A DNA stretch of 64,000 nt from a virus. Lineage: Duplodnaviria > Heunggongvirae > Uroviricota > Caudoviricetes. Where the stretch lies: positions 57,364-121,363 of the IMG/VR virus record IMGVR_UViG_3300043466_002831; one strand, given 5' to 3'. How positions within the stretch are numbered: position 1 is the stretch's first letter; each line of letters starts with the position of its first letter. The notes beneath the pieces were generated by a model that saw only the letters and a list, made by a program, of their open reading frames with translations, was not told the origin of the DNA and did not search any database. Shown one piece after another: positions 232 to 63,916 of the stretch. Both the position numbers and the translations under genes were made by a program.

Positions 232-906
232 TTAATCTAAAGAGTTGGGGTAATATAATAAAGTTGGGTTCTTCTTTTGAATATCAGGAACATCTCCGCC
301 TAAAAAAGTTTTCTTGAATTCCATAACATCAAATCGTTCAGTGATTACATGGTAACCACTTTTGGTTGGAATAACCTCAATAACTTTTGGAACATAGTCA
401 TAAGTAATCTCAACAGTTCCATCCGACCGATGAAAGTGGTTTTCTGATTTTGTAACAAATGGACGACAAAACTTATTAATGATGGTAATTATTTTCATTA
501 ATACATCTTCATCTTTAATATCCACATCAACAATCCATCTTTTCTCTGAGGTTTTGATTTGACCAACAACTGAATCGAATAAACCTTTTTGGTTAGTTTG
601 ACCACTCTGTATTCTTTGAGCCAATTCAACCATCATATTCAAAGAAACATCTTTATGGTTTTGTTTCTGAACATGGATATATGCACGAGCCTTAAACATC
701 TCACAAAGTTGTTTAATCTCATCATACCTACGTTCAAGGTGGTCAATACTTTCAATACAATAAGTTTTAATGGTCCTTACCGATTGGTGGTTATCTCTTT
801 CACCTTCAGGTTGGTCTTTCTTTCTCTTAAACACATAGAGCATGTAGAAGTCACCTTCATCATCGAAGTTCAAAAGTGGTTTGATTATTTCTAAATTGTC
901 AATCAT
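232..906 (-). CDS. hypothetical protein
   Basis: 224-aa ORF with balanced composition; the overlapping plus ORF 589-894 looks spurious. Confidence 0.6.
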   Translation of the reverse strand: MIDNLEIIKPLLNFDDEGDFYMLYVFKRKKDQPEGERDNHQSVRTIKTYCIESIDHLERRYDEIKQLCEMFKARAYIHVQKQNHKDVSLNMMVELAQRIQSGQTNQKGLFDSVVGQIKTSEKRWIVDVDIKDEDVLMKIITIINKFCRPFVTKSENHFHRSDGTVEITYDYVPKVIEVIPTKSGYHVITERFDVMEFKKTFLGGDVPDIQKKNPTLLYYPNSLD

Positions 907-954
907 TTTACAAATATACTCAAAATCTTTACACTACCAAAGTATTTATAGGGA

Positions 955-2250
955 ATGAGAATAATAATCACAGAAGAGCAATTCAACCGATTTAATTTAC
1001 AGTTGTCTGAGCAAGGTATGGGCACAATGTTCACACCTCAATATCATGCAATGGAAATGTCTAAAATTGTTAAAATGCCAACTCATGAATTAAATGCTAT
1101 TTTAGGATTGGCAACCGCCTTTATACCTGTTATAGGACCTTTTATTAGTGCTGGAATTGGAGCGTTAGATGCTCTCCAATATTATCAAGAAGGTGATAAT
1201 AAAAGCGCAGCTATTGCCACAGGATTTTCATTACTCCCATTTATAGGTCCTGTAGTATCTAAAATACCAGGAGTTAAGCAATTAGGTGCGAAGGGTATGG
1301 CTGCGTTGGCATCAAAAGTTGGAAAAACCTCCAAATTTACACAAACTGAAGCACAAGTTTTAAAATCAATCAACGCCAATAAATCACTTGTGACGAATGA
1401 ATTAAAGGCGACTAGTAGTATATTAAATAGTTTAAAAGGTAGTGTTAGTCAATTTAAACCAAGCTATGTTCAAAGATTTGGTAAAAGTGCTTATGATGAT
1501 TTATTAAAGAAATTGGTATCAAAAAAAATAACTAAAGAACAGTTTATTGGTACTTTGAAAAAGGGTAAAGTTGCGTCCCCCAAGTTATCTAATTTTGCTA
1601 CAAAATTTGGAGTGAAATTTTCACAAGAAGAGTTACAGAGTATTAAAGCCATGACAAATGGAATTAAAACAGGTAAAACAACCCAAATTGTGTCAATTAA
1701 TACCAAGAATGGTGTAAAACAAGTTAAAATAAATGTTTTTGACCCAAATATGTATGCCAAAACTAGACCTGAATTAAAAAATATTGATGCGTTTGCTAAA
1801 GGTGATGGTATTTTTGTAAATAAAAACATTGTTGGGAAAGCCGATTTAGATGAATTAATAGGACATGAGTTGGCTCATATTAAAGACCCATCAATGGTTA
1901 GTAGTAAATTAAATAAAACATATAATACCAGTAGTGTTAAAAACTATAACTTACACCCATATGAGATAAATGCGGTTACATCGGCAGCACTTCAAACTTT
2001 AACTAACACAACTAAAAGTTGGATGAAGTATTTACCTAAAGAGCAATTAATGGGTTATTTAGATGATATTCTTAGATATACAAAAGGTGAAAAAGTTTTT
2101 GATGCGAATAGCTTAAAAATGATTGGTAAAGATGGATTAGACCAATTAATATTATATTATAAAAATGATAAAAAAACTTACCGTAATGTTTTAACCAAGA
2201 TAGCTAAACAAGCTAACTATCTAAAATCACAAGTTAACATTGCAATGTAA
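955..2250 (+). CDS. N-terminal-motif (NTM) family protein with HExxH motif (putative Zn-metallopeptidase) and a hydrophobic segment
   Basis: N-terminus MRIIITEEQFNRFN matches the recurring family motif. Contains LIGHELAHIKD (HExxH) and a hydrophobic stretch LGLATAFIPVIGPFISAGIGAL. Confidence 0.65.
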   Translation: MRIIITEEQFNRFNLQLSEQGMGTMFTPQYHAMEMSKIVKMPTHELNAILGLATAFIPVIGPFISAGIGALDALQYYQEGDNKSAAIATGFSLLPFIGPVVSKIPGVKQLGAKGMAALASKVGKTSKFTQTEAQVLKSINANKSLVTNELKATSSILNSLKGSVSQFKPSYVQRFGKSAYDDLLKKLVSKKITKEQFIGTLKKGKVASPKLSNFATKFGVKFSQEELQSIKAMTNGIKTGKTTQIVSINTKNGVKQVKINVFDPNMYAKTRPELKNIDAFAKGDGIFVNKNIVGKADLDELIGHELAHIKDPSMVSSKLNKTYNTSSVKNYNLHPYEINAVTSAALQTLTNTTKSWMKYLPKEQLMGYLDDILRYTKGEKVFDANSLKMIGKDGLDQLILYYKNDKKTYRNVLTKIAKQANYLKSQVNIAM

Positions 2251-2263
2251 TAAGTAATTAATA

Positions 2264-2836
2264 ATGAAGATAATAATCACAGAAGAACAATTCAATCGAT
2301 TCAATAGAAGTAGCGGTGCGTTACAGAATGGGATTATTAAATATTTGAATCTTTTATTCTCAGAGGGTGAAAGGACTTTTAGTACTAAAAACAACAATCT
2401 TGGTAGTCTTTCAGAAAATTGGTGTATAGATGGTAAAAATCATTTCATGATAAATTATTATTTTGAAGATGGTAAGTTTAATGTTGGTAAGTTAATTGTG
2501 TCTATGACGATTGTTGACCAAATTAGAAATATATTCAGTATCAAAAAATCATATGCTCTCCATGTTATTGAAGAGTGGTATGAAGACGTAATGGTTCCAA
2601 AATTTGAGGAGTTGGTTGATGAAAAAGGATTAAGTATCGATGAAATTATGATTAGTACAAATATAGATAGTCCTTGTAAACCTAAATTTGTCAGACCTGA
2701 TGATTTAACGGATGATGAAATGATTGATTATATTGTGGCACACACTTTATTTAAAAGACAGGATGTTATACGACAACTTGAAGGTGGTAGAGACCTTGAT
2801 GTGATGTACGCAGATATTCTTTATAGAGACAAATAG
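2264..2836 (+). CDS. NTM family protein
   Basis: N-terminus MKIIITEEQFNRFN is nearly identical to the preceding gene's N-terminus. Confidence 0.7.
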   Translation: MKIIITEEQFNRFNRSSGALQNGIIKYLNLLFSEGERTFSTKNNNLGSLSENWCIDGKNHFMINYYFEDGKFNVGKLIVSMTIVDQIRNIFSIKKSYALHVIEEWYEDVMVPKFEELVDEKGLSIDEIMISTNIDSPCKPKFVRPDDLTDDEMIDYIVAHTLFKRQDVIRQLEGGRDLDVMYADILYRDK

Positions 2837-7154: not shown

Positions 7155-7209
7155 AACTTTAAAGATAATAAAGATTCATTATTAAACAAATATCTATATA
7201 TTTATTATC

Positions 7210-8421
7210 ATGAGATTAGATGAAAACATACTTAGAATAAAGGAAGTTATGGGATTGATTACCGAGGCGGAAGTAAATCCTCAAGGTGTTGAAATTAATC
7301 TTGGTAACTTATTTAAATCAGGTAAATATATTATAACACCTGAAATTGGTACTAAAATTAATTCTGCTATTAATCAAATCAAAGCATTTATTACTAAAAA
7401 TCCAGGTAAACCTGTTGTAGTTACAATAGAATCATCGGAATCAAAAGTACCTAATTATGACAGAGAAAAATTCCCATCAACTGGGAATAATGAGGTTGAT
7501 TTTACTAAAGAGAAAAAAATGGTGGTTGGAGCACTATCAAAAATTAGGGCAAATAATTTATCAACATATTTAAAACCTAAATTACCTAAAAGTGCTCAAA
7601 TAGTTATCAATGACAAGGGTGCTCAAGGACCTACTTGGGATGGCGTGAATGCGGATGCTGAAAAATATACTCAAAAACAATATGTTAAATTATTTGCAAA
7701 ACTTAACACTACCCAACCAACAACAAGTACGCCTAAAACAGACCCTAAATTTTGTACACAAGAAATAGAAAGTTCTGGTGGAAAGGGAAACCCAAGTAAT
7801 GGTTTTATCTCCGAGGTAAAAACTATTGAACTAGGTGAAGGTGAAAATACATTTAAATTCTTTATTGATTCTATAAGTGTACCTGATATTATGATTGTTG
7901 AATATAATGGGGTTACACAAACTACGGGATTTGTTGGTAGTGATACTGAATTATACCAAACTTTATTAGGGACTATAATTTATAACCGTTACGATAATTG
8001 GGGTAACCCAAGACCGTGGTGGTTCAAAAACCTTAAATTAGTTGGAGTACAACCATATCACGCTGACCAAGTTTTAAAAAAATATTCAGGTGATTGGACA
8101 CCTGATGATTTATCACACATCTATCCAAAGGCTCCTAAATTAAGTACTACTTTTTTTCAAACAATGACTAAAAATCCTGACGAATATGTTGGGAATTTTA
8201 AAGTATATAAATTAGGCTACGATTCAATTAGAACGATGGCGGCGGGAGTTGATGCTTGGAACGGTCCATCAAGTATAACTATTAATAAAGTTGCTGGTGT
8301 GAATACTGCCAAAGTTACTATCATTGGATTGATAGGTCAAACAAAATGGAAATTATATGTTAAGTGTGGTAACATTGCACCAATGTTAACAACTGCGGGT
8401 GGTTCAGGTGGGGATGCTTAA
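7210..8421 (+). CDS. hypothetical protein with variant NTM-like N-terminus
   Basis: MRLDENILRIKEVMGLITE resembles the MNLREDIERIQEVMGIE variant of the family motif. Confidence 0.55.
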   Translation: MRLDENILRIKEVMGLITEAEVNPQGVEINLGNLFKSGKYIITPEIGTKINSAINQIKAFITKNPGKPVVVTIESSESKVPNYDREKFPSTGNNEVDFTKEKKMVVGALSKIRANNLSTYLKPKLPKSAQIVINDKGAQGPTWDGVNADAEKYTQKQYVKLFAKLNTTQPTTSTPKTDPKFCTQEIESSGGKGNPSNGFISEVKTIELGEGENTFKFFIDSISVPDIMIVEYNGVTQTTGFVGSDTELYQTLLGTIIYNRYDNWGNPRPWWFKNLKLVGVQPYHADQVLKKYSGDWTPDDLSHIYPKAPKLSTTFFQTMTKNPDEYVGNFKVYKLGYDSIRTMAAGVDAWNGPSSITINKVAGVNTAKVTIIGLIGQTKWKLYVKCGNIAPMLTTAGGSGGDA

Positions 8422-8532
8422 CTTATTCGGTGAAAACTGTTGAATACTAAAAATATTATTAGTATTATTCATTGACCACACCAAAATGGTGTTTTTACGT
8501 CTATCGTGTAATTTACAAAACTACTTATCATT

Positions 8533-10752: not shown

Positions 10753-10758
10753 TCTTAA

Positions 10759-10787
10759 CCCTCACAGAAATGTGGGGGTTTTTATTT
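10759..10787 (+). terminator. rho-independent terminator
   Basis: CCCTCACA-GAAA-TGTGGGGG followed by TTTTT. Confidence 0.75.
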
Positions 10788-10793
10788 AGTAAA

Positions 10794-10805
10794 GTATTTA
10801 TTAAT
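10794..10805 (+). promoter_or_regulatory. conserved upstream motif GTATTTATTAAT abutting ATG
   Basis: Identical 17-mer AAGTATTTATTAATATG also occurs at 18119-18135 and 34354-34370, each directly after a terminator. Confidence 0.5.
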
Positions 10806-11120
10806 ATGAACTTACGAGAAGACATAGAAAGAATTCAAGAGGTAATGGGTATTGAGGTATCAAATCTATTCAAACGAAAAATGCATATTGTTGACCGACT
10901 AATATATACTTTGATTGAAGATTCAATGTATCCATGTGATTATGATAATGAGGAAGAGTTTTATGAGGGAGTTATTTATGAACTCAGTTGGTTAGTTAAA
11001 AACAAGGACTTTGGTTTAGATGATGTTGAATGGTTAGATATCTATGATTACATAACAAATTTCAAAGAAGAAGAACTCAAAGGTTATTATAAAGAACGTT
11101 GTGGTGACAAAGATGTTTAA
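10806..11120 (+). CDS. NTM family protein (MNLxE variant)
   Basis: Real start is the ATG at 10806 (MNLREDIERIQEVMG). The track start 10770 lies inside the upstream terminator hairpin. Conserved GTATTTATTAAT motif immediately upstream. Confidence 0.65.
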   Translation: MNLREDIERIQEVMGIEVSNLFKRKMHIVDRLIYTLIEDSMYPCDYDNEEEFYEGVIYELSWLVKNKDFGLDDVEWLDIYDYITNFKEEELKGYYKERCGDKDV

Positions 11121-11176
11121 GAACGAAAATATCGACCTTAAAAAATGTTTGTTGTTTATCAAAATTATACTTAACT

Positions 11177-11431: not shown

Positions 11432-11444
11432 AGTATTTAATACT

Positions 11445-13205
11445 ATGAAGATTATTGTCACCAAGGAACAGCATAATATTATTAAGGAGGCGTTAGGTGT
11501 TCCTGATTCAATTTTAGATGCTGCGGAAGAACTATATGATGTATTTGCGGATAACTTAAAGAGCATTACAGATAAAGAATCATCTTATGAATTTAGAGAT
11601 GATATTGATGTGGTATTGGGTGACAAGAAGAAGATTACAATTGATGGATATACTTTAGAGGTTGAAATTGAAGAAGTTGATGATTTCCACGAAAGAGTTA
11701 CTCCTGATAGAAACGTAACAATATCTTCAATGGGTATGTCACAACAATTTAGATTTAACCGTGACACCATGATGAAAGAAATACAACCATCAACAAGTGC
11801 TGGATTCAATATTGTTTATTATGCTTCACCTGAATGGGAACCTCAAGATTTGTATGATGAATTCATTAGAGAGAAAAGTAAAAGTATTGGTTCTTTAGCC
11901 CATGAATTAAAACACAAATACGATAAACAAGCCAAACGAATTGATTTAATTGGTAAAGACGCTGAATATAGTGCGGTAGATAAACTACCATCGTTTCACG
12001 TCCCTGAGGTTGATGACCAATTTGTTCGTTATTTGTATTTTACAGATGGAACTGAGGATTTAGTTAGAACAACAGAGGTTGCTTCCAACATGAGAAGTGA
12101 AGGTATTAGTAAATCTCAATTTAGAGAATTCTTACAAAACAATAAAACCTTTAAAACTTTGGTCGATATTAAAAACTTTACCTTTGAAAAATTAATCAAA
12201 GGGATTTACAATAATCTTGACACAGTTGATAAAATCTTTGATGCTATTGATGTGGATACTGATGGAATGTCTGATAAAGATAAGGTGGAAAAGTTCTTGA
12301 AAATAATTTATGTCAATCTTTCCAATATGAAATTGCGTACATTTGAAGATTATGTTGGTAGTAGTGAAAATATGTTCGCACAATTTCTTAGAGCGATGGG
12401 ACAACTAGGTATTGCCGATGATGAAGAAGAGATTAAACTTAACAAGATTAAAACAAAATTTCAAAATCACGTTTTAAAATATAGAGATAATCCAATACAA
12501 TTCTTTAAGAGTGAAATAGACCGATTCCATAGAGTTTCAGACCAAGCAATGAAAAGAATAAGTAAACTATATGCGATGGCAAAAGACGATACAGAAATGA
12601 CAGAATCGATTATTGATTGGGAACTTCACAGACAACTGATGGAGAAGAAACACGGGAAACGACCAATAGAAACTAATTTTAAATTTATTAGTGAAGATAG
12701 AGAATCCAAAATTGAAAACATCAGACAATTAATAAAAGACCCTAACCAATTTGAAACAATGGTTAAAGTAATGGGTATTGAAAATATAATTAAAATTGCT
12801 TATGATGGCGACATAATTAAGTTCAGTGAAGACACAACTACTCCACTTGCTTATATGTCTACAGACAGAATGAATTTATATATACATAAGGCGTTAGTTG
12901 ATGAACTTGGACTAAAAGACATAGGGTGGGCTGGTCGTAATGAAAAAGAATTAGGTAAATTCGCATATGGTTCCAAGAATGGTCTGAGATACGCATTCAA
13001 CGCTACATTAGCTCCAACAAGACTTCCAAGACTTCATAACCAAAACTATTATAGAGTTGTTGGAACAAGTGGTGATTCAGGATTTGGTTATAGTTTTATT
13101 AATAAAAAAAACATATTAGGTGTAAGATATAGGCAACAAATCTTCAAACAGATAATTGACAAATACGATTTATCAAAATACATGAATGTGAAAACTTTTT
13201 ATTAA
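11445..13205 (+). CDS. NTM family protein, large (586 aa)
   Basis: N-terminus MKIIVTKEQHNIIKEALG. Terminator follows. Confidence 0.65.
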   Translation: MKIIVTKEQHNIIKEALGVPDSILDAAEELYDVFADNLKSITDKESSYEFRDDIDVVLGDKKKITIDGYTLEVEIEEVDDFHERVTPDRNVTISSMGMSQQFRFNRDTMMKEIQPSTSAGFNIVYYASPEWEPQDLYDEFIREKSKSIGSLAHELKHKYDKQAKRIDLIGKDAEYSAVDKLPSFHVPEVDDQFVRYLYFTDGTEDLVRTTEVASNMRSEGISKSQFREFLQNNKTFKTLVDIKNFTFEKLIKGIYNNLDTVDKIFDAIDVDTDGMSDKDKVEKFLKIIYVNLSNMKLRTFEDYVGSSENMFAQFLRAMGQLGIADDEEEIKLNKIKTKFQNHVLKYRDNPIQFFKSEIDRFHRVSDQAMKRISKLYAMAKDDTEMTESIIDWELHRQLMEKKHGKRPIETNFKFISEDRESKIENIRQLIKDPNQFETMVKVMGIENIIKIAYDGDIIKFSEDTTTPLAYMSTDRMNLYIHKALVDELGLKDIGWAGRNEKELGKFAYGSKNGLRYAFNATLAPTRLPRLHNQNYYRVVGTSGDSGFGYSFINKKNILGVRYRQQIFKQIIDKYDLSKYMNVKTFY

Positions 13206-13210
13206 CCAAA

Positions 13211-13237
13211 CCCTCACATAAAGTGGGGGTTTTTTTG
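13211..13237 (+). terminator. rho-independent terminator
   Basis: CCCTCAC-ATAAA-GTGGGGG followed by TTTTTTT. Confidence 0.75.
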
Positions 13238-13245
13238 TATATTTG
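13238..13245 (+). promoter_or_regulatory. Bacteroidota-type -7 promoter box TATATTTG, 4 nt upstream of ATG
   Basis: Matches the TAnnTTTG consensus; its spacing to the ATG implies a leaderless transcript. Confidence 0.55.
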
Positions 13246-13249
13246 TAGT

Positions 13250-13528
13250 ATGAAGAAACTACTTAAACACATAATCATACTTGCAATCGTTAGAAATGAG
13301 AGAAAGGCTCAGATGATTATCGATATCCTATACGACCAAACAACAACAATAACCAAAGACAATAAGGTTGTTGTGATGAAAGGTGAGACTAAAAATGTTA
13401 TGACACCACCGAACAACAAAAGACAAGAAGTTTTGGACGCCATTCAGTTCCTCAAGAATAAAGAAACAAAGACCAAAGCTGACCGAGAAAAGATTCAAAT
13501 GTTGGAAGTGGTTCTTAAAACCGTATAA
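13250..13528 (+). CDS. hypothetical small protein
   Basis: ATG at 13250 is preceded by TATATTTG-N4. The track start lies within the upstream terminator T-run. Confidence 0.5.
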   Translation: MKKLLKHIIILAIVRNERKAQMIIDILYDQTTTITKDNKVVVMKGETKNVMTPPNNKRQEVLDAIQFLKNKETKTKADREKIQMLEVVLKTV

Positions 13529-13537
13529 TGGTTTTTA

Positions 13538-14038: not shown

Positions 14039-14107
14039 ATATGATAAATACTATAATAAATAAAAAAGGGGGTTGGGGGATTTGATGCCAGCCACACAAC
14101 GACAGAT

Positions 14108-16731: not shown

Positions 16732-18087
16732 ATGGATAAACGTCATTACAATAGATGGTCTGATGAAGACTTAAAAAAAGAAGCGTTAAAGTATTCAACA
16801 TTATCGGATTTCAAAAATAACGCTAGTTCACAGTATAGGCAATCTTTAAAAAGGGGTAAAGAATTTTTTGATAACATAACATCTCACATAACAAGAAAAT
16901 GTGCGAATCTTTCTAAAAATGAATTAAAACAAATTGCTTTGAGATATGAATATAAAGGAGAATTTCAAAAATATGATAAAGCGGCATATCTTTCGGCGTT
17001 AAGAAGAGGACGTGAATTTTTTAACGACATTACTTCTCACATGAAAAATAAGTTAAATTATTGGACTGATGAGATTTTAAGAAATGAAGTACTTAAATAC
17101 CAAACGAAACTTGAATTCAAAAAAAACAATTTTAAAGCGTATCAGGCTGCAATGTCTAAAGGTAAAAATTTTTGGTATGATGTAACATCTCATATGGATA
17201 ATAGTCATTTTACAAGATGGACCAAAGAATTATTAACACAAGAAGCTTTGAAACATAATACTTTAACTGATTTTAAGCAAAAAAGTAAAGGTGCTCATAG
17301 TGCTGCAAAAAAAATAGGTATCGATTTCTTTAATTTAATAACTTCACATATGCCACAACCTAAAAGGTGGACCTACGAAGAATTAAAAAATGAAGCCTTG
17401 AAATATACCACAAAGTCAGACTTCCGAAAAAACAATAGGAATGCATATCAAGTTTCAAAAGAAAGAAAGATATTAAATGATATTTGTACACACATGGAAA
17501 AAATAGGTAGCAAATACTCAAGAATTATTTATACGTATGAATTTTCCGATAATAGTGTTTACGTAGGATTGACCTACAAACCATCTCAAAGACATAGTGA
17601 CCACATGAGCAAAAAAAATTCTGCGGTTTTCCTTTATATGGAAAAAACAGGGTTAGTACCTATAAAAAAAATAATGACCGATTTTTTAAATAAAGATGAT
17701 GCATCTGAGATGGAAACTGAAATACTGAACAAATACCGTAATGAAGGATGGAAAATTTTAAATCGTACTAAAACTGGAGGGTTGGGTGGATTTACAAGAC
17801 GTTGGACACCCGAAAACATAGAAAAAGAAGCACTTAAGTATGATACACTAACTGAATTTTATAAAAATTCACGCGCAGTAACTGTCGCCGCCAAAAAAAT
17901 AGGTGAAGACTTTTATAAAAAAATTATTTCTCATATGAAACGAACTACAGTTTGGACCGAAGAACTTTTAAGAGAAGAATCCCAAAATTATAAAACTAGA
18001 ACTCATTTTGCAAGGGGAAGTACGAGCGCATATTATACTTCTAAAAAGAGAGGATTATTAGATAAGTTTTTTCCGAGAAAGAAATGA
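16732..18087 (+). CDS. GIY-YIG homing-endonuclease-like protein embedded in seven ~48-aa tandem repeat modules
   Basis: GIY-YIG core IYTYEFSDNSVYVGLTYKPSQRHSDH...N. Seven repeats of the pattern W(T/S)xEEL(K/R)xEALKYxT(K/L)xxFxKNxxxAYxxxxK(R/K)GxxFFxxITSHM, five before and two after the nuclease core. Confidence 0.7.
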   Translation: MDKRHYNRWSDEDLKKEALKYSTLSDFKNNASSQYRQSLKRGKEFFDNITSHITRKCANLSKNELKQIALRYEYKGEFQKYDKAAYLSALRRGREFFNDITSHMKNKLNYWTDEILRNEVLKYQTKLEFKKNNFKAYQAAMSKGKNFWYDVTSHMDNSHFTRWTKELLTQEALKHNTLTDFKQKSKGAHSAAKKIGIDFFNLITSHMPQPKRWTYEELKNEALKYTTKSDFRKNNRNAYQVSKERKILNDICTHMEKIGSKYSRIIYTYEFSDNSVYVGLTYKPSQRHSDHMSKKNSAVFLYMEKTGLVPIKKIMTDFLNKDDASEMETEILNKYRNEGWKILNRTKTGGLGGFTRRWTPENIEKEALKYDTLTEFYKNSRAVTVAAKKIGEDFYKKIISHMKRTTVWTEELLREESQNYKTRTHFARGSTSAYYTSKKRGLLDKFFPRKK

Positions 18088-18116
18088 CCATCACTATAAT
18101 GGTGGGGGTTTTTCAT
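18088..18116 (+). terminator. terminator-like hairpin (degenerate copy)
   Basis: CCATCACTATAATGGTGGGGG followed by TTTTT. Confidence 0.5.
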
Positions 18117-18135
18117 TATTAAAGTATTTATTAAT

Positions 18136-18447
18136 ATGAATCTAAAAGAATCCATAAGAAGAATAATAAGAGAAGAATTTAAATCGAAATTCTTTATTAG
18201 AAGAGTTGATTTAGATTTAGCTAAAGACATGCTTCCAATTAATGCAGAACAAGTATACCATGAAACTGAAAGTTATGAGCAATTCAAATATGAATTAACT
18301 TTAAGGGTTGTGGAAGCAATTATGTGGAATAAGTATGAACTTGGTTGGGAAGATTTACCTGAACAAGAAGAAATAGAATACGTGACTAAACTTTCGGATG
18401 CATTCGAGAAAACAATTAAACGGTTATATCATATTTATCATAATTAA
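18136..18447 (+). CDS. NTM family protein (MNLKESIR variant)
   Basis: MNLKESIRRIIREEFKSK; the AAGTATTTATTAATATG cassette lies upstream. Confidence 0.65.
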   Translation: MNLKESIRRIIREEFKSKFFIRRVDLDLAKDMLPINAEQVYHETESYEQFKYELTLRVVEAIMWNKYELGWEDLPEQEEIEYVTKLSDAFEKTIKRLYHIYHN

Positions 18448-18451
18448 TAAT

Positions 18452-19842: not shown

Positions 19843-19856
19843 AAAAATATTTAAAA

Positions 19857-19882
19857 CCTCACTGTAATGGTGAGGTTTTTTT
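19857..19882 (+). terminator. rho-independent terminator
   Basis: CCTCAC-TGTAATG-GTGAGG perfect stem followed by TTTTTTT. Confidence 0.8.
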
Positions 19883-19883
19883 G

Positions 19884-19891
19884 TATATTTG
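19884..19891 (+). promoter_or_regulatory. -7 promoter box TATATTTG, 4 nt upstream of HNH ATG
   Basis: TAnnTTTG-N4-ATG. Confidence 0.55.
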
Positions 19892-19895
19892 TATT

Positions 19896-20804
19896 ATGTT
19901 AGTTCGCGAGTGTCCATCATGTAATAGTAATATCACATATTCTAATAAGGATAATTTTAATAGTGCCAATAAAAAAGGTAGTTTGTGTAAAAAGTGTGCC
20001 GAGGCAGAGAAACACGGTAGAAAAACTATTACGGACATAAATACATTTTTTAGACTCTATAGCGAAGAACGTAGAAGTGTGGAGGATATTGCAAAACACT
20101 TTGAAGTGTTACCTAGCACTGTTAAAAATTATGCCAACCATAATAAAATAAACAGACGAGATTACGATATTATTATGGAAAAAGAAGGTAAAAAAAGGTG
20201 TCATGGATGTAAATCTTTTTATGTCTTTGATGACTTTCATAAAAACAATAACACTAGAGATGGATTGGTAACCAAGTGTAAAAAATGTATGTGTGAGAAA
20301 TCAAATGATTATAAAGATAAAAATCTTGAACGAGTGTTAAAATCTACAAAGGAATATTCAAAACGAATGAAAGAAGAAAATCCTGAGACCTTTAAAAAGT
20401 GGAGAAAAACCGCTAAAAAAAATTACTTAAACAGTGAGATTGGTAAGTGGGATAGTAAATGTCGTTCTATATTAAAAAGAGCTTTATCTAAAATGGGTTT
20501 AACTAAAAATGATACCACTAACAAATTATTAGGGTATTCACCTAAACAACTTCTTGATTATTTAAAAACTTTTGATTTATATTATGAGGGTGGATATGAA
20601 GTTGACCACAAAGTACCTATTAGTTATTTTAAATTAGGAACTCACCCAAGTATCATTAATTCATTATGTAATTTACAATTAACCACCATTAAATATAATC
20701 AAAATAAAAGTAATAAGTTTGCCGACCCAATTACTATTGATTATTATGATAATATTAAACTACATATTAAAGAAGAATGTCTTAATAAACTTATTGTGAA
20801 ATAA
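19896..20804 (+). CDS. HNH homing endonuclease with two N-terminal Cys4 zinc-finger-like modules
   Basis: CPSCNS...CKKC and CHGCKS...CKKCMC; C-terminal HNH signature YEVDHKVPISYF...N. ATG at 19896 preceded by TATATTTG-N4. Flanked by a 75-bp direct repeat. Confidence 0.7.
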   Translation: MLVRECPSCNSNITYSNKDNFNSANKKGSLCKKCAEAEKHGRKTITDINTFFRLYSEERRSVEDIAKHFEVLPSTVKNYANHNKINRRDYDIIMEKEGKKRCHGCKSFYVFDDFHKNNNTRDGLVTKCKKCMCEKSNDYKDKNLERVLKSTKEYSKRMKEENPETFKKWRKTAKKNYLNSEIGKWDSKCRSILKRALSKMGLTKNDTTNKLLGYSPKQLLDYLKTFDLYYEGGYEVDHKVPISYFKLGTHPSIINSLCNLQLTTIKYNQNKSNKFADPITIDYYDNIKLHIKEECLNKLIVK

Positions 20805-20807
20805 TAC

Positions 20808-23505: not shown

Positions 23506-23795
23506 TTTGTATTATATTTGTGGGATGGAAATATAGGGGTACATTTGGGGTTTCCAAAACACGACCCCCCTTTTGAAAAAGGTCCTAATATGTCAAAAAA
23601 AATTTTTGGGATTTTTTCTGTAAAATGGAACTCTACTAATTTGTAAAGTAAAACCCTTATAATATGTAAAGTGTGGGATTTTCCCCAACGGTAATATCCT
23701 GATAAATTAGGGGTGTATTATATTAAAGATTACCGAACGGGAATATCATTAACGGAGGGGTTTTTTATTTCAATTAATTTTATTATCTTTGTCTT

Positions 23796-24014
23796 ATGGA
23801 ACCTGATGAAAATGGATTAACCCATGTTACCTTACCTGAATTTATAAATACCATTTATGATATGAATGGGGAATTCAAATTAGATTGTTTGGATTTGGAT
23901 GGTATAGGTTTAGATACGAATATAGTATTGGTAAAATTAAAGGAGGTTGCACAAAGAAGTAAGATGGGGGGTAATAAAGGAATACATTTAACTTATGAAA
24001 AAGAAGGGGTATAG
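23796..24014 (+). CDS. hypothetical small protein
   Basis: 72-aa ORF. Confidence 0.4.
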   Translation: MEPDENGLTHVTLPEFINTIYDMNGEFKLDCLDLDGIGLDTNIVLVKLKEVAQRSKMGGNKGIHLTYEKEGV

Positions 24015-24639: not shown

Positions 24640-24666
24640 CCCCATCTTTTTTAGGTGGGGTTTTTT
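24640..24666 (+). terminator. rho-independent terminator
   Basis: CCCCATCT-TTTTT-AGGTGGGG followed by TTTTTT. Confidence 0.7.
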
Positions 24667-24669
24667 GTT

Positions 24670-24677
24670 TATCTTTG
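24670..24677 (+). promoter_or_regulatory. -7 promoter box TATCTTTG, 4 nt upstream of ATG 24682
   Basis: TAnnTTTG-N4-ATG, immediately after a terminator. Confidence 0.5.
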
Positions 24678-24681
24678 ATGT

Positions 24682-25014
24682 ATGATAGAAGATATAAAAG
24701 TAATTCACCTCAAAAGTAATGCTCAACAACTTGAAACATGGATTGCCATGTTGAATGGGGAAATTGTGGGACACATCTATATGGAACGTGAAGAAAAGGA
24801 AAAGATTAAGTTTTTGGATGCTTGGGTTCATGAGGAACATAGATTGAAAGGTGTATTTAGAAAGTTGTGGGACACAAGATGGGAGTATGTTAAAAACCGT
24901 TATGCTGGTTATACTGTATATGCTTGGTGTAAACCAGGTTCATTGCCATTACTTTTGGAAAAAGGGTTTAGTGAAGGTGAAACATGTACGTATGTTGAAA
25001 AAATTGTAGAGTAA
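24682..25014 (+). CDS. GNAT-family N-acetyltransferase-like protein
   Basis: HRLKGVFRKL resembles GNAT motif A. TATCTTTG-N4-ATG upstream. Confidence 0.45.
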   Translation: MIEDIKVIHLKSNAQQLETWIAMLNGEIVGHIYMEREEKEKIKFLDAWVHEEHRLKGVFRKLWDTRWEYVKNRYAGYTVYAWCKPGSLPLLLEKGFSEGETCTYVEKIVE

Positions 25015-25282: not shown

Positions 25283-25299
25283 TCAGTATATTTATTGAC

Positions 25300-25617
25300 A
25301 TGAAGTACCTCATCACCGAATCCAGGTTGGAAAACTTAATATACAAGTATCTTGAATCGAAAAGTCTTTATTTGTTAAGCACGGTTAATTCACGTCATTT
25401 TTTTCCTTCCCGTAAATCTATTGATGATGGTGAGTACCCGATTATATCCTACGATAATAAGAACAAAGATTGTTTTGTTAGTTCCACTTTTGTTGAGGAT
25501 GTATGTTCTTTGTTTTCCATTGACCCCGAATATTCTTTGAAGGTTATATCTGAATGGGTTGGAAATAAATTGGATGTTGAAATTGAATCATATAATTCCG
25601 ACTTTGGTGCCGACTAA
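25300..25617 (+). CDS. NTM family protein (array member 1)
   Basis: MKYLITESRLENLIYKYLES. Confidence 0.7.
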   Translation: MKYLITESRLENLIYKYLESKSLYLLSTVNSRHFFPSRKSIDDGEYPIISYDNKNKDCFVSSTFVEDVCSLFSIDPEYSLKVISEWVGNKLDVEIESYNSDFGAD

Positions 25618-25632
25618 CAAATATTTATTGAC

Positions 25633-25872
25633 ATGAAATATATTATTACCGAATCACAACATCAAAACATTATTCATGATTATTTGGAAAAGTATATTGA
25701 TTCGGATTGCGTTAGAATTAAAAAAACCCCTAACTATATTAGTGTTGATGTTGAAAGTCCAAGTTATTTTGAAGAACAGGGATTTGATAAATCTGATGTT
25801 GTCAGAATAAAAAACTTTCTGAAAAAGAACTCTTTTCAGTATGCGTTTGGAGAATACATTAAAAAAATATGA
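25633..25872 (+). CDS. NTM family protein (array member 2)
   Basis: MKYIITESQHQNIIHDYLEKY. Confidence 0.7.
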   Translation: MKYIITESQHQNIIHDYLEKYIDSDCVRIKKTPNYISVDVESPSYFEEQGFDKSDVVRIKNFLKKNSFQYAFGEYIKKI

Positions 25873-29022: not shown

Positions 29023-29096
29023 TTCGAAATCCTTTGTTATATGGTCATCTCGTTGGTGTCATCTAAACAAATGGTCGGGTCATTATATTTATTATT

Positions 29097-30020
29097 ATGA
29101 AGTACATTATCACTGAATCACAGTATAAGAATTTAATTGAATCTGATGACCGCTTAACCAAAATGGTTAATAGGTATTTGGACATGACATTCGGAAACAT
29201 GGTTCGAGTTGATACAAAGTTTGGTTCAGGTTATAAGTTTGACGGAGATGACCAATATCAACTTAATGTTTTCAAAAATGATTCAGGTAAATTGCAATTG
29301 GCAATTTCATCATCATTTATTAAACACCTTACCTCAATGTTTGATGTTTATAAATCTGAGGCGAGTGAACTTATTGCAGAATATTGTGAAGATGTTTTGG
29401 GTATGGAATTTGATTTTATACGAATTTGGCCAATTAAAATAACTGAATCAGATTTAACTCGAATAATTGAGAGAATCATACAAGAACAAGTTGCAACTGA
29501 ACCAATTAATTTTGATAAAGTATATAAATCCACTTATCCTAGTATGTTTAGACAAGTTTGTATGAAATATGCAAACGGAGATTATGACTTGGCATCTGAA
29601 TATTGCCAACTTGGATATTTGAGAGTTAACGATAAACTCCACACATTTAAGGGTGAAGGTAGTTTGGAGGGTTGGATTCGTCGTGTGATTACAACAACAA
29701 TCATCAATGAGTTCAGAGCTAAGAAAAGAAAAATCGACACAACAAGTGATTTTGATTTTGAAAGAAACGATGTTTCAGATGAACCTGAAGAAAAATATGA
29801 AGATATTGAGTTTATGGGTAAGTATACCGTGGCAGATATTAAAAACGCCATTGATTCTCTCCCTAAAGGTTATCAATTTGTTTTCTACCAATATTTCTAT
29901 AAAGACAAATCTCATAAGGAAATTGCTGACGCTTTGGGAATTGACGAAGGTACATCAAGGTCCCAATTGTCAAAAGCTAAAAAGAAGATTAAGGATTACT
30001 TGGAAAGTTTAAAAAGATAA
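29097..30020 (+). CDS. ECF-type sigma-70 family factor fused to an NTM-family N-terminal region
   Basis: N-terminus MKYIITESQYKNLIESDD. The C-terminal half has a region-2-like segment (LEGWIRRVITTTIINEFRAKKRK) and a region-4 helix-turn-helix (LPKGYQFVFYQYFYKDKSHKEIADALGIDEGTSRSQLSKAKKKIKDYL). Confidence 0.7.
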   Translation: MKYIITESQYKNLIESDDRLTKMVNRYLDMTFGNMVRVDTKFGSGYKFDGDDQYQLNVFKNDSGKLQLAISSSFIKHLTSMFDVYKSEASELIAEYCEDVLGMEFDFIRIWPIKITESDLTRIIERIIQEQVATEPINFDKVYKSTYPSMFRQVCMKYANGDYDLASEYCQLGYLRVNDKLHTFKGEGSLEGWIRRVITTTIINEFRAKKRKIDTTSDFDFERNDVSDEPEEKYEDIEFMGKYTVADIKNAIDSLPKGYQFVFYQYFYKDKSHKEIADALGIDEGTSRSQLSKAKKKIKDYLESLKR

Positions 30021-34092: not shown

Positions 34093-34324
34093 TGTTTATT
34101 ATAAAATTATTCGTACATTTGTTTAAACAATTAAAAACTTATACAAATGACACAAGCGATTTATGAGAAGGTAGAGGAGTACGTAAGAAAGAAGTATTTC
34201 TTGATGTTTAAAAAAGAGGATAACTTGATTATCCACGAACACGAGAATTTTTTCACGGTCAAAAAACATGAGACCGCATCCCCATTAATCTTGGGGAAAG
34301 AGATTCTCTCCTAATATAAATAAA

Positions 34325-34349
34325 CCCCATCTAATCGGTGGGGTTTTTT
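34325..34349 (+). terminator. rho-independent terminator
   Basis: CCCCATC-TAATC-GGTGGGG followed by TTTTTT. Confidence 0.75.
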
Positions 34350-34370
34350 GTTTGTTAAGTATTTATTAAT

Positions 34371-37652: not shown

Positions 37653-37896
37653 ATAAAATGGATAACTACCCTAAATGGATTAATAACCTAATCTACTTTT
37701 TAGCAGGTATTGGTTTTTATGGAACCCTAATAACCTTTTTGTAATGAAAATATTATTAGGAATTTTATTAACCCCAGCTATACTATGGGGATGGATTGTC
37801 ACAGTAACTTACCTGTATCATCGATTTAAATCGAAAGGATAGACCCTGAACATAAAGTTTGGGGTTTTTTTATTTTTAAGGTATTTATTGATAACA

Positions 37897-42332: not shown

Positions 42333-42339
42333 TAACTAA

Positions 42340-42364
42340 CCCCACTCAAAAGGTGGGGTTTTTT
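42340..42364 (+). terminator. rho-independent terminator
   Basis: CCCCAC-TCAAAAG-GTGGGG followed by TTTTTT. Confidence 0.8.
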
Positions 42365-42387
42365 GTTTATTAATGTATTTATAGAAT

Positions 42388-56832: not shown

Positions 56833-56842
56833 ACTTTTTTTG

Positions 56843-56850
56843 TATCTTTG
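56843..56850 (+). promoter_or_regulatory. -7 promoter box TATCTTTG, 4 nt upstream of ATG 56855
   Basis: TAnnTTTG-N4-ATG; supports the revised start of the signal-peptide gene. Confidence 0.5.
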
Positions 56851-56854
56851 TTAT

Positions 56855-63838: not shown

Positions 63839-63916
63839 GGGACAAAGATACGAATTTTTTGCATAAAAAAAATCCCCACCTGTAAAAAAGATGGGGAATT
63901 CAGTAATTAAATTTGA

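What the first reader, a model, noticed from the sequence alone, without database searches (positions are those of the whole stretch)
10759..10808. Recurrent 50-bp terminator-promoter-start cassettes (PeSL-like modules)
The exact string AAGTATTTATTAATATGAA follows a terminator hairpin at three unrelated genes (10791, 18119, 34354). A second cassette type, hairpin-TTTTTTTGTATATTTGTA[GT]TATG, occurs at 13225 and 19869. Terminator stems are themselves stereotyped (CCC[CT]CAC ... GTG[GA]GGG). These fixed hairpin-plus-promoter units delimiting small genes resemble the promoter-early stem-loop (PeSL) modules of T4-like phages, which mediate gene shuffling. They may be the recombination substrate that generated the NTM-family expansion.
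Basis: partly seen in the sequence, partly recalled or inferred. Interest (0 to 1): 0.55.

Follow-up and report, generated by a model that had tools for sequence, protein, structure and literature searches.

The report
Terminator plus promoter-at-ATG gene cassettes
The repeated 50-bp strings are compact control units of an uncultured large Bacteroidota phage: a terminator hairpin, then an 8-base promoter box 4-5 bases before the ATG, which predicts leaderless mRNAs and sometimes marks where genes were swapped between related phages.

Summary
AAGTATTTATTAATATGAA occurs exactly three times, each after a stable hairpin with a T-run. TTTTTTTGTATATTTGTAKTATG occurs twice. Chance expects about 0.

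These are the best-matching copies of a window-wide grammar. About 30 of 108 genes carry an 8-nt box ending 4-5 nt before the ATG.
- Class A, TAHHTTTG, is the Bacteroidota sigma-A -7 box. Across the window and its relatives it has a -33 TTTG 19-20 nt upstream. Published geometry puts the transcription start on the A of the ATG, so the mRNAs would be leaderless.
- Class B, RTATTTAT(T), sits in the same place with no upstream element. It precedes genes with a shared N-terminal peptide (52/77 against 1/43 for class A).

The same grammar holds in 211 kb of related phage contigs, some from contigs over 300 kb. The exact 19-mer opens an ORF in 51 of 51 viral contigs that hold it.

The PeSL analogy is partly supported. 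Hairpin copies flank an extra gene in two relatives, exactly where the window has a single cassette. Overall, however, breakpoints lie no closer to cassettes than to any gene boundary. There is no Shine-Dalgarno sequence, and no T4 core gene was seen. The cassettes did not demonstrably generate the N-terminal-motif family.

The parts
10757..10808 (+). Type 1 cassette. Hairpin 10757-10780, T-rich linker, class B box GTATTTAT 10794-10801, 4-nt spacer, ATG 10806 (104-aa gene, MNLREDIERI).
   Evidence: In L052/L053 homology runs through the hairpin and T-run and then diverges at the box.
18086..18138 (+). Type 1 cassette. Bulged hairpin 18086-18110, class B box 18124-18131, ATG 18136 (103-aa gene, MNLKESIRRI). 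It lies downstream of the GIY-YIG gene 16732-18087.
34322..34373 (+). Type 1 cassette. Hairpin 34322-34346, class B box 34359-34366, ATG 34371 (345-aa gene, MKYIITESQ).
   Evidence: Relatives of the gene body carry other N-termini but also a class B box.
37841..37899 (+). Type 1-like cassette. Hairpin 37841-37867, box GTATTTAT 37881-37888, 8-nt spacer, ATG 37897.
42338..42390 (+). Type 1 cassette. Hairpin 42338-42360, box 42375-42382, 5-nt spacer, ATG 42388 (MARVVRLTEQEL). Relative L071 has two hairpin copies flanking an extra 59-aa gene here.
13208..13252 (+). Type 2 cassette. Hairpin 13208-13232, class A box TATATTTG 13238-13245 (sigma-A -7 type), 4-nt spacer, ATG 13250. It is conserved with this gene in five relatives. 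L114 has two hairpin copies flanking an extra 244-aa gene. L054 has a 46-aa gene inserted just 5' of the hairpin.
19853..19898 (+). Type 2 cassette. Hairpin 19853-19879 (bidirectional), class A box TATATTTG 19884-19891, 4-nt spacer, ATG 19896.
   Evidence: A similar cassette precedes a 546-aa gene in L054.
24640..24684 (+). Type 2 cassette. Hairpin 24640-24660, class A box TATCTTTG 24670-24677, 4-nt spacer, ATG 24682.
23784..23798 (+). Class A box TATCTTTG + 4 nt + ATG 23796. A GGAGGGG-T6 hairpin end lies 23 nt upstream.
56835..56857 (+). T-run + class A box TATCTTTG 56843-56850 + 4 nt + ATG 56855. There is no hairpin. It is divergent from gene 55717-56784(-).
63836..63897 (-). Minus-strand Type 2-like cassette. 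Hairpin 63873-63897, class A box 63843-63850, 4-nt spacer, ATG 63838 (T4 RnlA-like RNA ligase).
904..957 (.). Back-to-back divergent module, with 48 nt between the two ATGs. It holds a class A promoter (TTTGGTAG -33, TATATTTG -7) for gene 232-906(-) and class B GTATTTAT + 5 nt for gene 955(+). The same module occurs in L053, L054, L064-L066 and L105.
955..2310 (+). A 431-aa gene flanked by a 45-nt direct repeat (ATGARRATAATAATCACAGAAGARCAATTCAAYCGATTYAAT, encoding M[RK]IIITEEQFNRFN). L054 has one fused copy and no 431-aa gene. L053 has a different 98-aa gene there.
7198..7212 (+). Class B box (ATATTTAT) + 4 nt + ATG 7210, divergent from 7154(-). L054 keeps the box and the 5' end as a scar (ATG changed to CTG) after loss of 7230-11134.
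11433..11447 (+). Class B variant GTATTTAA + 4 nt + ATG 11445, with no hairpin. It starts 1 nt after the stop of the upstream gene.
25288..25635 (+). Two class B boxes (ATATTTATTGACATG at 25288 and 25621) heading the first two genes of a tandem MKY[IL]ITES array. Later members (25869, 26531, 26869, 27574) have no box.
29085..30020 (+). Class B box ATATTTATTATTATG followed by a 307-aa sigma-70-family gene (regions 2 and 4) that itself starts MKYIITESQ. It is a candidate reader of phage-specific promoters.

Best explanation
**What the strings are.** The repeated strings are the 3' parts of compact intergenic expression modules. Each module has three pieces:
1. an intrinsic-terminator hairpin (C-run arm, loop, G-run arm) with its T-run, which ends or attenuates upstream transcription;
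2. an 8-nt promoter box;
3. exactly 4-5 nt later, the ATG.

**Type 2.** The box is the Bacteroidota primary-sigma -7 element TAHHTTTG. Published Flavobacterium data place that element at -12..-5, with 4-5 nt to the transcription start. RNA polymerase should therefore start on the A of the ATG, and the mRNA would be leaderless. This suits a host phylum that does not use Shine-Dalgarno pairing.

**Type 1.** The box is (R)TATTTAT(T), in the same position, with no upstream element. It heads the genes that carry the shared N-terminal peptide. I read it as a second, phage-specific promoter class. It may be read with a phage factor, and a sigma-70-family gene lies in the window. It may also double as a favourable A/U-rich initiation context.

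**Evolution.** The modules are a conserved grammar of a clade of uncultured large phages, with related contigs up to 322 kb. They travel with the downstream gene. Because the hairpins are homologous repeats, they occasionally serve as crossover points for inserting or removing gene-plus-cassette units, as PeSLs do in T4-type phages.

**Shown versus inferred.** Shown: motif positions, enrichment, conservation, hairpin stability and junction anatomy. Inferred: promoter activity, a start site at the ATG, termination, the identity of the class B reader, and the recombination mechanism.
For: - **Position at gene starts.** TANNTTTG-N4-ATG occurs 11 times against 2.1 expected, and 10 of 11 sit at the first ATG of an ORF. 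GTATTTAT-N4-ATG with up to 1 mismatch occurs 16 times against 4.6 expected, mostly at ORF starts.
- **Spacing.** Box-to-ATG spacing peaks sharply at 4-5 nt in the window. The same holds in 211 kb of relatives chosen by protein homology, not by motif: class A 25 at spacing 4, class B 35 at spacing 4 and 28 at spacing 5.
- **Class A upstream element.** The class A logo shows TT(T/G)G 19-20 nt upstream, which is the sigma-A -33 element. Class B has none.
- **Published geometry.** The -7 box lies at -12..-5, 4-5 nt from the start site (PMC6847099). Host leaderless mRNAs are only 3.7-5.5%.
- **Host control.** In 87 kb of Bacteroidota chromosomal loci, 0 of 11 box-to-start distances are 4-5 nt, and the peak is at 21-30. 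The phage values are 7/15 (window) and 33/80 (relatives).
- **No Shine-Dalgarno.** Only 8 of 108 genes have an SD-like core. A sigma-70 -35/-10 scan finds no excess: 99 against 107 expected.
- **Host phylum.** A CHU_C type IX secretion sorting domain links the phage to Bacteroidota.
- **Transcription-unit starts.** Boxed genes are enriched after a hairpin or at a divergent junction: 16/30 against 20/77, P=0.012. Divergent gene pairs have only 33-55 nt between their ATGs, which leaves no room for leaders.
- **The 19-mer elsewhere.** It opens an ORF in 51 of 51 viral contigs, but mostly does not in its 30 bacterial-genome matches.
- **Selection on the box.** Between 10806 and 18136 the 14 nt upstream of the ATG are identical, while the next 25 coding nt are about 64% identical.
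- **Conservation with the gene.** The orthologous cassette keeps the hairpin, box and spacer length while the spacer sequence and upstream gene differ.
- **Hairpins.** They fold at -11 to -16 kcal/mol.
- **Duplicated hairpins around extra genes.** Seen in L071 and L114.
- **Class B and the N-terminal motif.** 52/77 against 1/43 for class A, P=2e-13.
Against: - There are no transcript 5' or 3' ends, so promoter activity, a start site at the ATG and termination are all inferred.
- The two Type 2 cassettes named in the finding (13238, 19884) lack a TTTG at the -33 position; the hairpin arm occupies it.
- Class B fits the sigma-A consensus poorly. G-5 is nearly invariant in hosts, whereas class B has A or T there. 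It also carries A at -3, -6 and -13, the positions shown to raise translation in F. johnsoniae. A purely translational role is therefore not excluded.
- Ten of 20 class B genes are not at an obvious transcription-unit start.
- The window's sigma is an ECF-like two-domain protein. Such sigmas normally need a -35 element, and class B lacks one.
- The recombination role rests on a few junctions and is not statistically separable from 'indels fall at gene boundaries'.
Confidence: 0.6

Rival explanations
1. The class B string (AAGTATTTATTAAT-ATG) is a translation-initiation context, not a promoter. It would be an unstructured A/U-rich stretch with A at the Kozak-like positions, acting on leadered or read-through transcripts. 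The hairpins would then be attenuators or RNA-stability elements rather than full stops.
For: - A at -3, -6 and -12/-13 raises translation in F. johnsoniae (PMC6847099), and the 14-mer has A at -2, -3, -6, -10, -13 and -14.
- Class B has no -33/-35 partner.
- Half of the class B genes sit inside co-directional arrays with 13-17-nt gaps and no hairpin, for example 11445, 25300 and 25633.
Against: - The conserved core is TATTTAT, with T at -7 to -9 and R at -12. It is not the A positions.
- At 955 and its orthologues the box is conserved while the spacer changes from AGGGA to AAGTT, so -3 is G in all three.
- The exact string is not used at gene starts in Bacteroidota chromosomes.
- Class B occupies the same register as the bona fide -7 box of class A.
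- It occurs in 33-55-nt divergent regions and directly after hairpins, where no other promoter candidate is visible.
- N-terminal-motif genes inside arrays do without it.
Confidence: 0.22
2. This is the PeSL reading proper. The cassettes exist mainly as recombination substrates (mobile regulatory cassettes), and they drove both the gene shuffling and the expansion of the N-terminal-motif family.
For: - Duplicated homologous hairpins, with the same loop sequence, flank an extra gene in L071 and L114.
- The cassette is the homology boundary in A3.
- Cassettes are among the few pieces that match between the window and the mosaic contig L109.
- Three different gene contents occur at the 955 locus and at the 13529-14056 locus.
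Against: - Breakpoints are no closer to cassettes than to random gene boundaries (P=0.50-0.73).
- Several junctions have no cassette: 8423, 16620 (next to a GIY-YIG gene), 40298 and 41888.
- The 955/2264 event recombined in the coding repeat.
- Codons of the family motif vary at synonymous sites.
- Tandem family members lack cassettes.
- Strict positional conservation of the box relative to the ATG points to selection for expression.
Confidence: 0.15
3. The identical strings are passive relics of paralogue duplication (5' flank plus first codons copied together) and have no function of their own.
For: - 10806, 18136 and 14038(-) share MNL[KR]E.
- 34371 shares MKYIITESQ with seven other genes.
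- Three identical 14-mers among 10 spacing-4 class B sites is more than the clade-wide base frequencies predict.
Against: - Identity stops at the 14-mer. The hairpins, linkers and coding sequence have diverged.
- Whole proteins are not significantly similar.
- The same 14-mer heads unrelated genes in about 20 distinct phage contigs.
- The box is conserved at fixed spacing across distant relatives.
Confidence: 0.05

Closest known systems
PeSL (promoter-early stem-loop) cassettes of T4-type phages (Arbiol et al. 2010, PMC2839356; Comeau et al. 2014, PMC4122927)
   Same: - Repeated ~50-bp intergenic units that combine a G/C-run stem-loop terminator with a host-type promoter and the start of the downstream gene.
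- Concentrated among small genes of unknown function.
- Found next to insertions, deletions and replacements between relatives, including genes flanked by two cassette copies.
- A second cassette class with a different promoter type exists there too (PmSL).
   Different: - The promoter grammar is Bacteroidota (-7 TAHHTTTG, sometimes -33 TTTG) or a single-element box, not -35/-10.
- The box abuts the ATG, so there is no leader and no Shine-Dalgarno sequence.
- The stem-loop always lies upstream of the box.
- The phage is not shown to be T4-type.
- Association with breakpoints is anecdotal here, and mini-circles could not be tested.
Bacteroidota primary-sigma (sigma-ABfr) promoters, -33 TTTG / -7 TAnnTTTG (PMC6847099, PMC7366714, PMC9723704)
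   Same: Class A boxes match TAHHTTTG. Pooled over the window and relatives they show TTTG 19-20 nt upstream and T-rich spacer positions.
   Different: In host genomes the 5' UTR median is 24-32 nt and leaderless mRNAs are 3.7-5.5%. Here about 40-45% of box-to-start distances are 4-5 nt.
T4 late promoters (single 8-bp element TATAAATA near -10, no -35; from my own knowledge of T4 transcription)
   Same: Class B is also a stand-alone A/T-only 8-mer with no upstream partner, a few bases from the predicted start.
   Different: The sequence differs (TATTTAT, not TATAAATA). No gp55/gp33 homologue was looked for or seen. T4 late transcripts are leadered.
Halovirus HF2 intergenic repeats that carry promoters (PMC8707807)
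   Same: Conserved short intergenic repeats in a large tailed virus that act as promoters. Their sequence and positions are conserved across the virus genus.
   Different: The host and transcription machinery are archaeal. No terminator hairpin component is described in the abstract I read, and I did not read further.

Membership tests
PeSL cassettes (T4-type phages) | Repeated intergenic motif that combines a stem-loop with a promoter, immediately upstream of a gene | tested here: met
   There are five Type 1 and at least five Type 2 units in the window. The same units occur in relatives.
PeSL cassettes (T4-type phages) | The promoter matches the host primary-sigma consensus (early promoter) | tested here: inconclusive
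   Type 2 carries the Bacteroidota -7 consensus. Type 1, the string in the title of the finding, does not match it well and has no -33 element.
PeSL cassettes (T4-type phages) | The stem-loop, with poly-G/poly-C tracts, works as a terminator or attenuator | tested here: met
   In silico only. The stems are C-run/G-run, fold at -11 to -16 kcal/mol (z -2.4 to -4.7), and are followed by T-runs. Terminator-like sites exceed shuffles (18 vs 8, 30 vs 10, 18 vs 9). Termination itself cannot be tested here.
PeSL cassettes (T4-type phages) | A Shine-Dalgarno sequence and start codon at the 3' end of the unit | tested here: not met
   A start codon is present, but no SD. Only 8 of 108 genes have an SD-like core. 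The box ends 4-5 nt before the ATG.
PeSL cassettes (T4-type phages) | Resident in hyperplastic regions of a T4-type myovirus genome | tested here: inconclusive
   The region is rich in small genes of unknown function and is mosaic among relatives. No T4 core gene was seen: only an RnlA-like ligase, thymidylate synthase and a GIY-YIG gene in the window, and a ClpP-type protease beyond it. No cultured relative was found.
PeSL cassettes (T4-type phages) | Preferential association with indels or replacements between close relatives | tested here: inconclusive
   Against L053 and L054, 5 of 16 breakpoints each lie within 10 nt of a cassette zone. This gives P=0.003 against random positions but P=0.73 and 0.65 against random gene boundaries. 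For L071 the count is 2 of 11. Clear cassette-flanked insertions occur in L071 and L114.
PeSL cassettes (T4-type phages) | Formation of mini-circles by recombination between neighbouring cassettes | not testable with these tools
   This needs PCR or read-level data from lysates or metagenomes.
Bacteroidota sigma-A promoter | -7 element TAHHTTTG | tested here: met
   Met for class A / Type 2.
Bacteroidota sigma-A promoter | -33 TTTG about 19-20 nt upstream of the -7 element | tested here: met
   The pooled logo of 45 class A sites shows it, and it is explicit at 906(-). It is absent at the two cassettes named in the finding (13238, 19884). Hosts also often lack it.
Leaderless mRNA | Transcription starts at, or within 1-2 nt of, the A of an AUG start codon | not testable with these tools
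   This is predicted from the 4-5 nt box-to-start rule and the observed 4-5 nt box-to-ATG spacing. No transcript data are available.
Leaderless mRNA | AUG start codon and no upstream ribosome-binding motif | tested here: met
   Boxed starts are ATG by construction of the search pattern. Nearly all other window genes also start with ATG (105 of 106 at the first base of the start codon in the table; starts listed). An SD-like core is found in 8 of 108 genes.

The most novel reading that the evidence does not exclude
A widespread clade of uncultured large or jumbo phages of Bacteroidota expresses roughly a third of its genes as leaderless mRNAs. The promoter box is fused to the start codon, and there are two promoter classes.
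- One is the host sigma-A -7 box.
- The other is a phage-specific single-element box, (R)TATTTAT(T). It defines a regulon of proteins that all begin with the same short peptide (M-K-Y/I-I-I-T-E-S-Q and variants), including the phage's own sigma factor.

In the back-to-back divergent modules the two classes overlap, so they would be mutually exclusive. That would give a built-in temporal switch. The hairpin-plus-box units would double as portable insulated expression cassettes that let any acquired gene be expressed wherever it lands.
Probability: 0.3. Interest if true: 0.7.

Novelty: new variant of a known kind. Interest (0 to 1): 0.5.

Why it matters
**A testable expression rule.** If the prediction holds, this is a simple rule for a large, uncultured group of Bacteroidota phages: a box, then 4-5 nt, then the ATG. 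The rule fixes start codons and transcription units directly from sequence, which would improve annotation of these gene-dense genomes.

**Leaderless translation.** It would show a phage lineage relying heavily on leaderless translation in a phylum where host leaderless mRNAs are rare and Shine-Dalgarno pairing is not used.

**A linked gene family.** The tight link between the second box and a shared N-terminal peptide points to a co-regulated protein family of unknown role. A reporter assay could address it.

**Genome plasticity.** It extends the idea of terminator-promoter cassettes as portable, recombination-prone gene boundaries beyond T4-type phages of Proteobacteria and cyanobacteria.

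**Practical use.** The short class A and class B modules are candidate compact, insulated expression parts for Flavobacteriia and Bacteroidia engineering.

Tried and rejected
- **E. coli-type promoters.** The sigma-70 -35/-10 scan found 99, 94 and 100 sites against 107, 102 and 99 expected. These promoters are not the signal.
- **Known RNA families and tRNAs.** None were found.
- **Close cultured relatives.** Megablast of 12 kb against phage records gave one weak hit, to a 634-kb uncultured phage. tblastn with the RNA ligase and the sigma gave only distant hits.
- **Related loci for protein 35804-36754.** Nothing was found.
- **Paralogy of the three downstream genes.** BLASTP was not significant. 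Only the N-terminal peptide is shared.
- **Host-genome origin of the 19-mer.** There are 30 matches in 596 Gb, mostly not at ORF starts. Several lie inside a conserved Chitinophagaceae gene in another frame. I rejected it as a general host signal.
- **Breakpoint statistics.** They are not better than gene boundaries, so I do not claim a statistical association.
- **N-terminal peptide as a T4-like capsid-targeting or prohead-protease signal.** I considered this because of the [ILV]-x-E motif. It remains untested, and it is weakened by a ClpP-type rather than T4 gp21-type protease next to the window.
- **Class B as a shifted sigma-A box.** The majority form in relatives can be read as TAtaTTTA + 5 nt. 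This is not resolved, because the G-to-A change hits the most conserved host position.
- **The C-rich element CCCCCAACCCCC-T6 upstream of some class B boxes.** It occurs only once in the window and has no convincing hairpin. I did not pursue it.
Full report
**1. The observation**

The string AAGTATTTATTAATATGAA occurs exactly at 10792, 18122 and 34357 on the + strand. Relaxed to 3 mismatches there are 6 matches against 0.40 expected. TTTTTTTGTATATTTGTAKTATG occurs at 13230 and 19876, with a 3-mismatch copy at 56835, against 0.00 expected.

Each of the five exact copies lies just downstream of a hairpin with a T-run. These hairpins fold as RNA at -11 to -16 kcal/mol, z -2.4 to -4.7.

**2. What kind of genome this is**

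The window is 29-39% G+C by 2-kb window, about 32% overall, and is densely packed with about 108 mostly small genes. No tRNA or Rfam family was found. Only 8 of 108 genes have a Shine-Dalgarno-like core.

ORF 8533-10752 carries a CHU_C type IX secretion sorting domain, which links it to Bacteroidota. Other recognisable genes are:
- an RnlA-type RNA ligase and thymidylate synthase;
- a GIY-YIG nuclease;
- phosphoesterases;
- a 307-aa sigma-70-family protein.

No cultured relative exists in the phage collection. Relatives in IMG/VR come from contigs of up to 322 kb. I conclude this is an uncultured large phage of a Bacteroidota host. T4 core genes were not seen in the window, nor in the 10 kb beyond its right end, where a ClpP-type protease lies.

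**3. The strings are the best copies of a general start-site grammar**

TANNTTTG followed by exactly 4 nt and ATG occurs 11 times against 2.1 expected. Ten of the 11 ATGs are the first ATG of an ORF. GTATTTAT-N4-ATG with up to 1 mismatch occurs 16 times against 4.6 expected, again mostly at ORF starts and often with no hairpin nearby.

Over my 106 crude gene calls, the distance from box to ATG peaks at 4 nt (17 genes) and 5 nt (7 genes). I call TAHHTTTG class A and (R)TATTTAT(T) class B.

The same peaks appear in 211 kb of related contigs that were fetched by protein homology, not by motif:
- class A: 25 ORF starts at spacing 4, and at most 8 at any other spacing;
- class B: 35 at spacing 4 and 28 at spacing 5.

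**4. Class A is a complete Bacteroidota promoter placed on the start codon**

The pooled class A logo shows TT(T/G)G 19-20 nt upstream of the box and a T-rich spacer. That is the sigma-ABfr -33/-7 promoter.

In F. johnsoniae the -7 element occupies -12 to -5, and genuine promoters have 4-5 nt between the element and the transcription start (PMC6847099). A box that ends 4 nt before the ATG therefore predicts initiation at the A of the ATG, which means a leaderless mRNA.

In hosts such mRNAs are rare: 3.7% in B. thetaiotaomicron and 5.5% in F. psychrophilum. As a small control I used 87 kb of Bacteroidota chromosomal loci fetched for another reason.

| Source | Box-to-start distances of 4-5 nt |
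|---|---|
| Bacteroidota chromosomal loci | 0 of 11 (mode 21-30 nt) |
| Window | 7 of 15 |
| Related phage contigs | 33 of 80 |

Divergent gene pairs with only 33-55 nt between their ATGs (906/955, 7154/7210, 45687/45732, 59649/59683) leave no room for leaders. This step is geometric inference. No transcript ends are available.

**5. Class B**

Class B sits in the same register but has no upstream element. In relatives not chosen by motif, its majority form is tTATATTTATTaaT-ATG.

Class B is very strongly tied to genes whose products begin with a shared peptide: MKYIITESQ, MKIIITEEQ, MNLKESIRR, M..VRLTE.EL and variants. An [ILV]-x-E-x motif in the first nine or so residues occurs in 52 of 77 class B genes, against 1 of 43 class A genes (P=2e-13).

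Several results argue that the box is a specific signal and not merely A/U-rich context:
- At 955 and its orthologues the box is conserved while the 5-nt spacer changes, so -3 is G in all three.
- Between 10806 and 18136 the 14 upstream bases are identical, while the following 25 coding bases are only about 64% identical.
- The exact 19-mer opens an ORF of 37-552 aa in all 51 IMG/VR contigs that contain it. These represent about 20 distinct phages, and the site often follows a hairpin.
- In contrast, its 30 matches in 596 Gb of bacterial genomes are mostly not gene starts.

Boxed genes of both classes are enriched at transcription-unit starts: 16/30 against 20/77, P=0.012. This is a conservative figure, because my hairpin finder missed three.

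Against a pure promoter reading, the 14-mer has A at -3, -6 and -13, the positions that raise translation in F. johnsoniae. Also, half of the class B genes lie inside co-directional arrays. I therefore rank 'second, phage-specific promoter class' first and 'translation-initiation context' as the main rival.

The window's own sigma gene (29097-30020) is itself headed by a class B box and the shared peptide. A shorter orthologue in L109 keeps that peptide. Whether this sigma reads class B is unknown.

**6. The hairpins**

Nearly all are C-run arm, loop, G-run arm, T-run, and many have flanking A-runs that make them bidirectional. Several share loop sequence as well as stems, for example ...CTCACAAGG... 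at 30029, 37200, 32488 and 42338, and in L071. Terminator function does not require that, so it indicates common descent.

In Type 1 units the distance from stem end to box is 15-16 nt. In the three hairpin-adjacent Type 2 units (13208, 19853, 24640) it is 8-9 nt.

**7. Test of the PeSL idea**

PeSLs are repeated stem-loop plus sigma-70 early-promoter units that end in an SD and a start codon. They are concentrated in hyperplastic regions, sit next to indels between close relatives, and can form mini-circles (PMC2839356 and PMC4122927).

I compared the window with these relatives:

| Relative | Similarity to the window |
|---|---|
| L052 / L053 | about 82-92% nt |
| L054-L056 | about 80-87% nt |
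| L071 | 70-85% nt |
| L114 | 87-89% nt |
| L109 | mosaic |

Gene content is highly mosaic.

*Positive cases*

(a) L071 has a 59-aa gene between two near-identical hairpins, AAACCCCATCTCACAAGGTGGGGTTTTTT and AACCCCACTCACAAGGTGGGGTTTTTT. This is exactly where the window has the single cassette 42338-42390.

(b) L114 has a 244-aa gene between two copies of the 13208 hairpin. One copy is 28/28 identical to the window, including the loop.

(c) L054 has a 46-aa gene with its own class A promoter inserted between the stop codon and the 13208 hairpin.

(d) The Type 2 cassette of gene 13250 is conserved with that gene in five relatives although the upstream neighbour differs. Homology starts at the hairpin.

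(e) At 10808, homology with L052 runs through the hairpin and T-run and then diverges at the box.

(f) The 431-aa gene 955-2250 is flanked by a 45-nt direct repeat that encodes the shared N-terminal peptide. L054 has the fused single copy, and L053 has a different gene at that site.

*Negative or neutral results*
- Breakpoints are near cassettes more often than random positions for L053 and L054 (P=0.003 each), though not for L071 (P=0.12). They are no nearer than random gene boundaries (P=0.50-0.73).
- Several junctions have no cassette. One lies beside the GIY-YIG gene and looks like homing-endonuclease traffic.

The units therefore work like PeSLs in architecture, and in some events. Membership fails on the SD feature. 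It is undecided on the T4-type host genome and on the statistical association.

**8. The N-terminal-motif family**

Codons of the MKYIITES motif differ freely at synonymous sites among the eight window genes. The peptide is therefore conserved by selection on the protein, not by recent DNA exchange. Most members of the tandem array 25300-27867 have no box or hairpin between them.

The claim that the cassettes generated this family is not supported. What is supported is that class B boxes and this family go together.

**9. Verdict**

It is a clade-wide, compact terminator-promoter-start grammar adapted to Bacteroidota transcription and SD-free translation. It predicts leaderless mRNAs and has two box classes that separate by protein family. 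It has a plausible secondary role as recombination joints, demonstrated in only a few cases.

It is a new variant of a known kind of element. The decisive data would be transcript 5' and 3' ends, and reporter assays.

Noticed in passing
window 29097-30020 (+): This is a phage-encoded sigma-70-family protein (Pfam regions 2 and 4) of 307 aa that begins with the shared peptide MKYIITESQ and is headed by a class B box. The orthologue in L109 is only 187 aa but keeps the same N-terminal peptide, so about 120 aa are inserted between the peptide and the sigma core in the window copy.
   Followed up: partly
window gene starts 955, 2264, 2840, 7210, 10806, 11445, 14038(-), 18136, 19077(-), 25300-27574, 29097, 32550, 34371, 35804, 36756, 39720, 42388, 45732, 54533, 59649(-): About 25 genes of unrelated length and body share short N-terminal peptides: MKYIITESQ, M[RK]IIITEEQF, MNLKESIRR, MKK[IL][IV]RLTE[AS]DL.RI[IV]..VISEQ. 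All contain [ILV]-x-E. There is no Pfam hit. Synonymous sites vary, so selection acts on the peptide. It could be a targeting, packaging or processing tag. This is untested.
   Followed up: partly
window 10806-11120 vs L052 8457-9617: The 104-aa window gene is the C-terminal domain of a 386-aa gene in L052/L053, with a new 15-residue N-terminus (MNLREDIERIQEVMG) joined right after the cassette. The 386-aa protein carries a similar peptide (SLKESIRRVLKEE) internally, at the domain border.
   Followed up: partly
window 11445-13205 (+), residues 413-586: The C-terminal ~170 aa of the 586-aa protein is a separate module. It is the only part conserved in distant relatives (L057-L068), it occurs twice in tandem in L057, and it is missing in L114, where the gene stops at 417 aa.
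   Followed up: no
window 16732-18087 (+): This is a GIY-YIG nuclease gene (451 aa) that is absent from L053 and L054. The left breakpoint lies inside the 3' end of the neighbouring gene 16382-16699, as expected for homing-endonuclease-associated replacement.
   Followed up: partly
window 18446-18526 and 20796-20880; hairpins 18474-18498 and 20828-20852: An ~80-bp repeat containing a strong hairpin (GGGAGACTCC...GGGTCTCC-T5) occurs twice in the window and twice in L060. Several relatives' contigs end in this neighbourhood.
   Followed up: no
window 20805-23128: This stretch is gene-poor and has few convincing ORFs. A ~45-bp repeat (AAAATTTTGGGAAAAAAATGTYCCTTTTTTGACTATTTAT) occurs at about 22850 and 23072. 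There is no tRNA or Rfam match.
   Followed up: no
window 14064-14078 (-) and many relatives (L054, L057, L058, L060, L062, L064, L065, L067): A C-rich element, CCCC[ACT][AG]CCCC followed by a T-run, lies just upstream of class A or B boxes in many relatives. It has no obvious complementary G-arm, so it is not a standard hairpin terminator. At 13529-14056 three relatives carry three different gene contents next to it.
   Followed up: partly
window 46811-49516 (+): This 901-aa protein has extensive internal nucleotide repeats (about 47.2-49.1 kb). Many metagenomic contigs of relatives break inside it.
   Followed up: no
window 38877-38996 (+), 45535-45687 (-); L054 11839-11979: These are small, very basic proteins (MAKA[RKT]K..., 39-50 aa) scattered at different loci. 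One is an insertion in L054 relative to the window.
   Followed up: no
window 904-957; L105 4957/5005; L053, L054, L064-L066: This is a conserved back-to-back divergent module. The class B box of one gene directly abuts the -33 element (TTTGGTAG on the other strand) of the class A promoter of the opposite gene, with 47-48 nt between the ATGs. Occupancy of the two should be mutually exclusive.
   Followed up: partly
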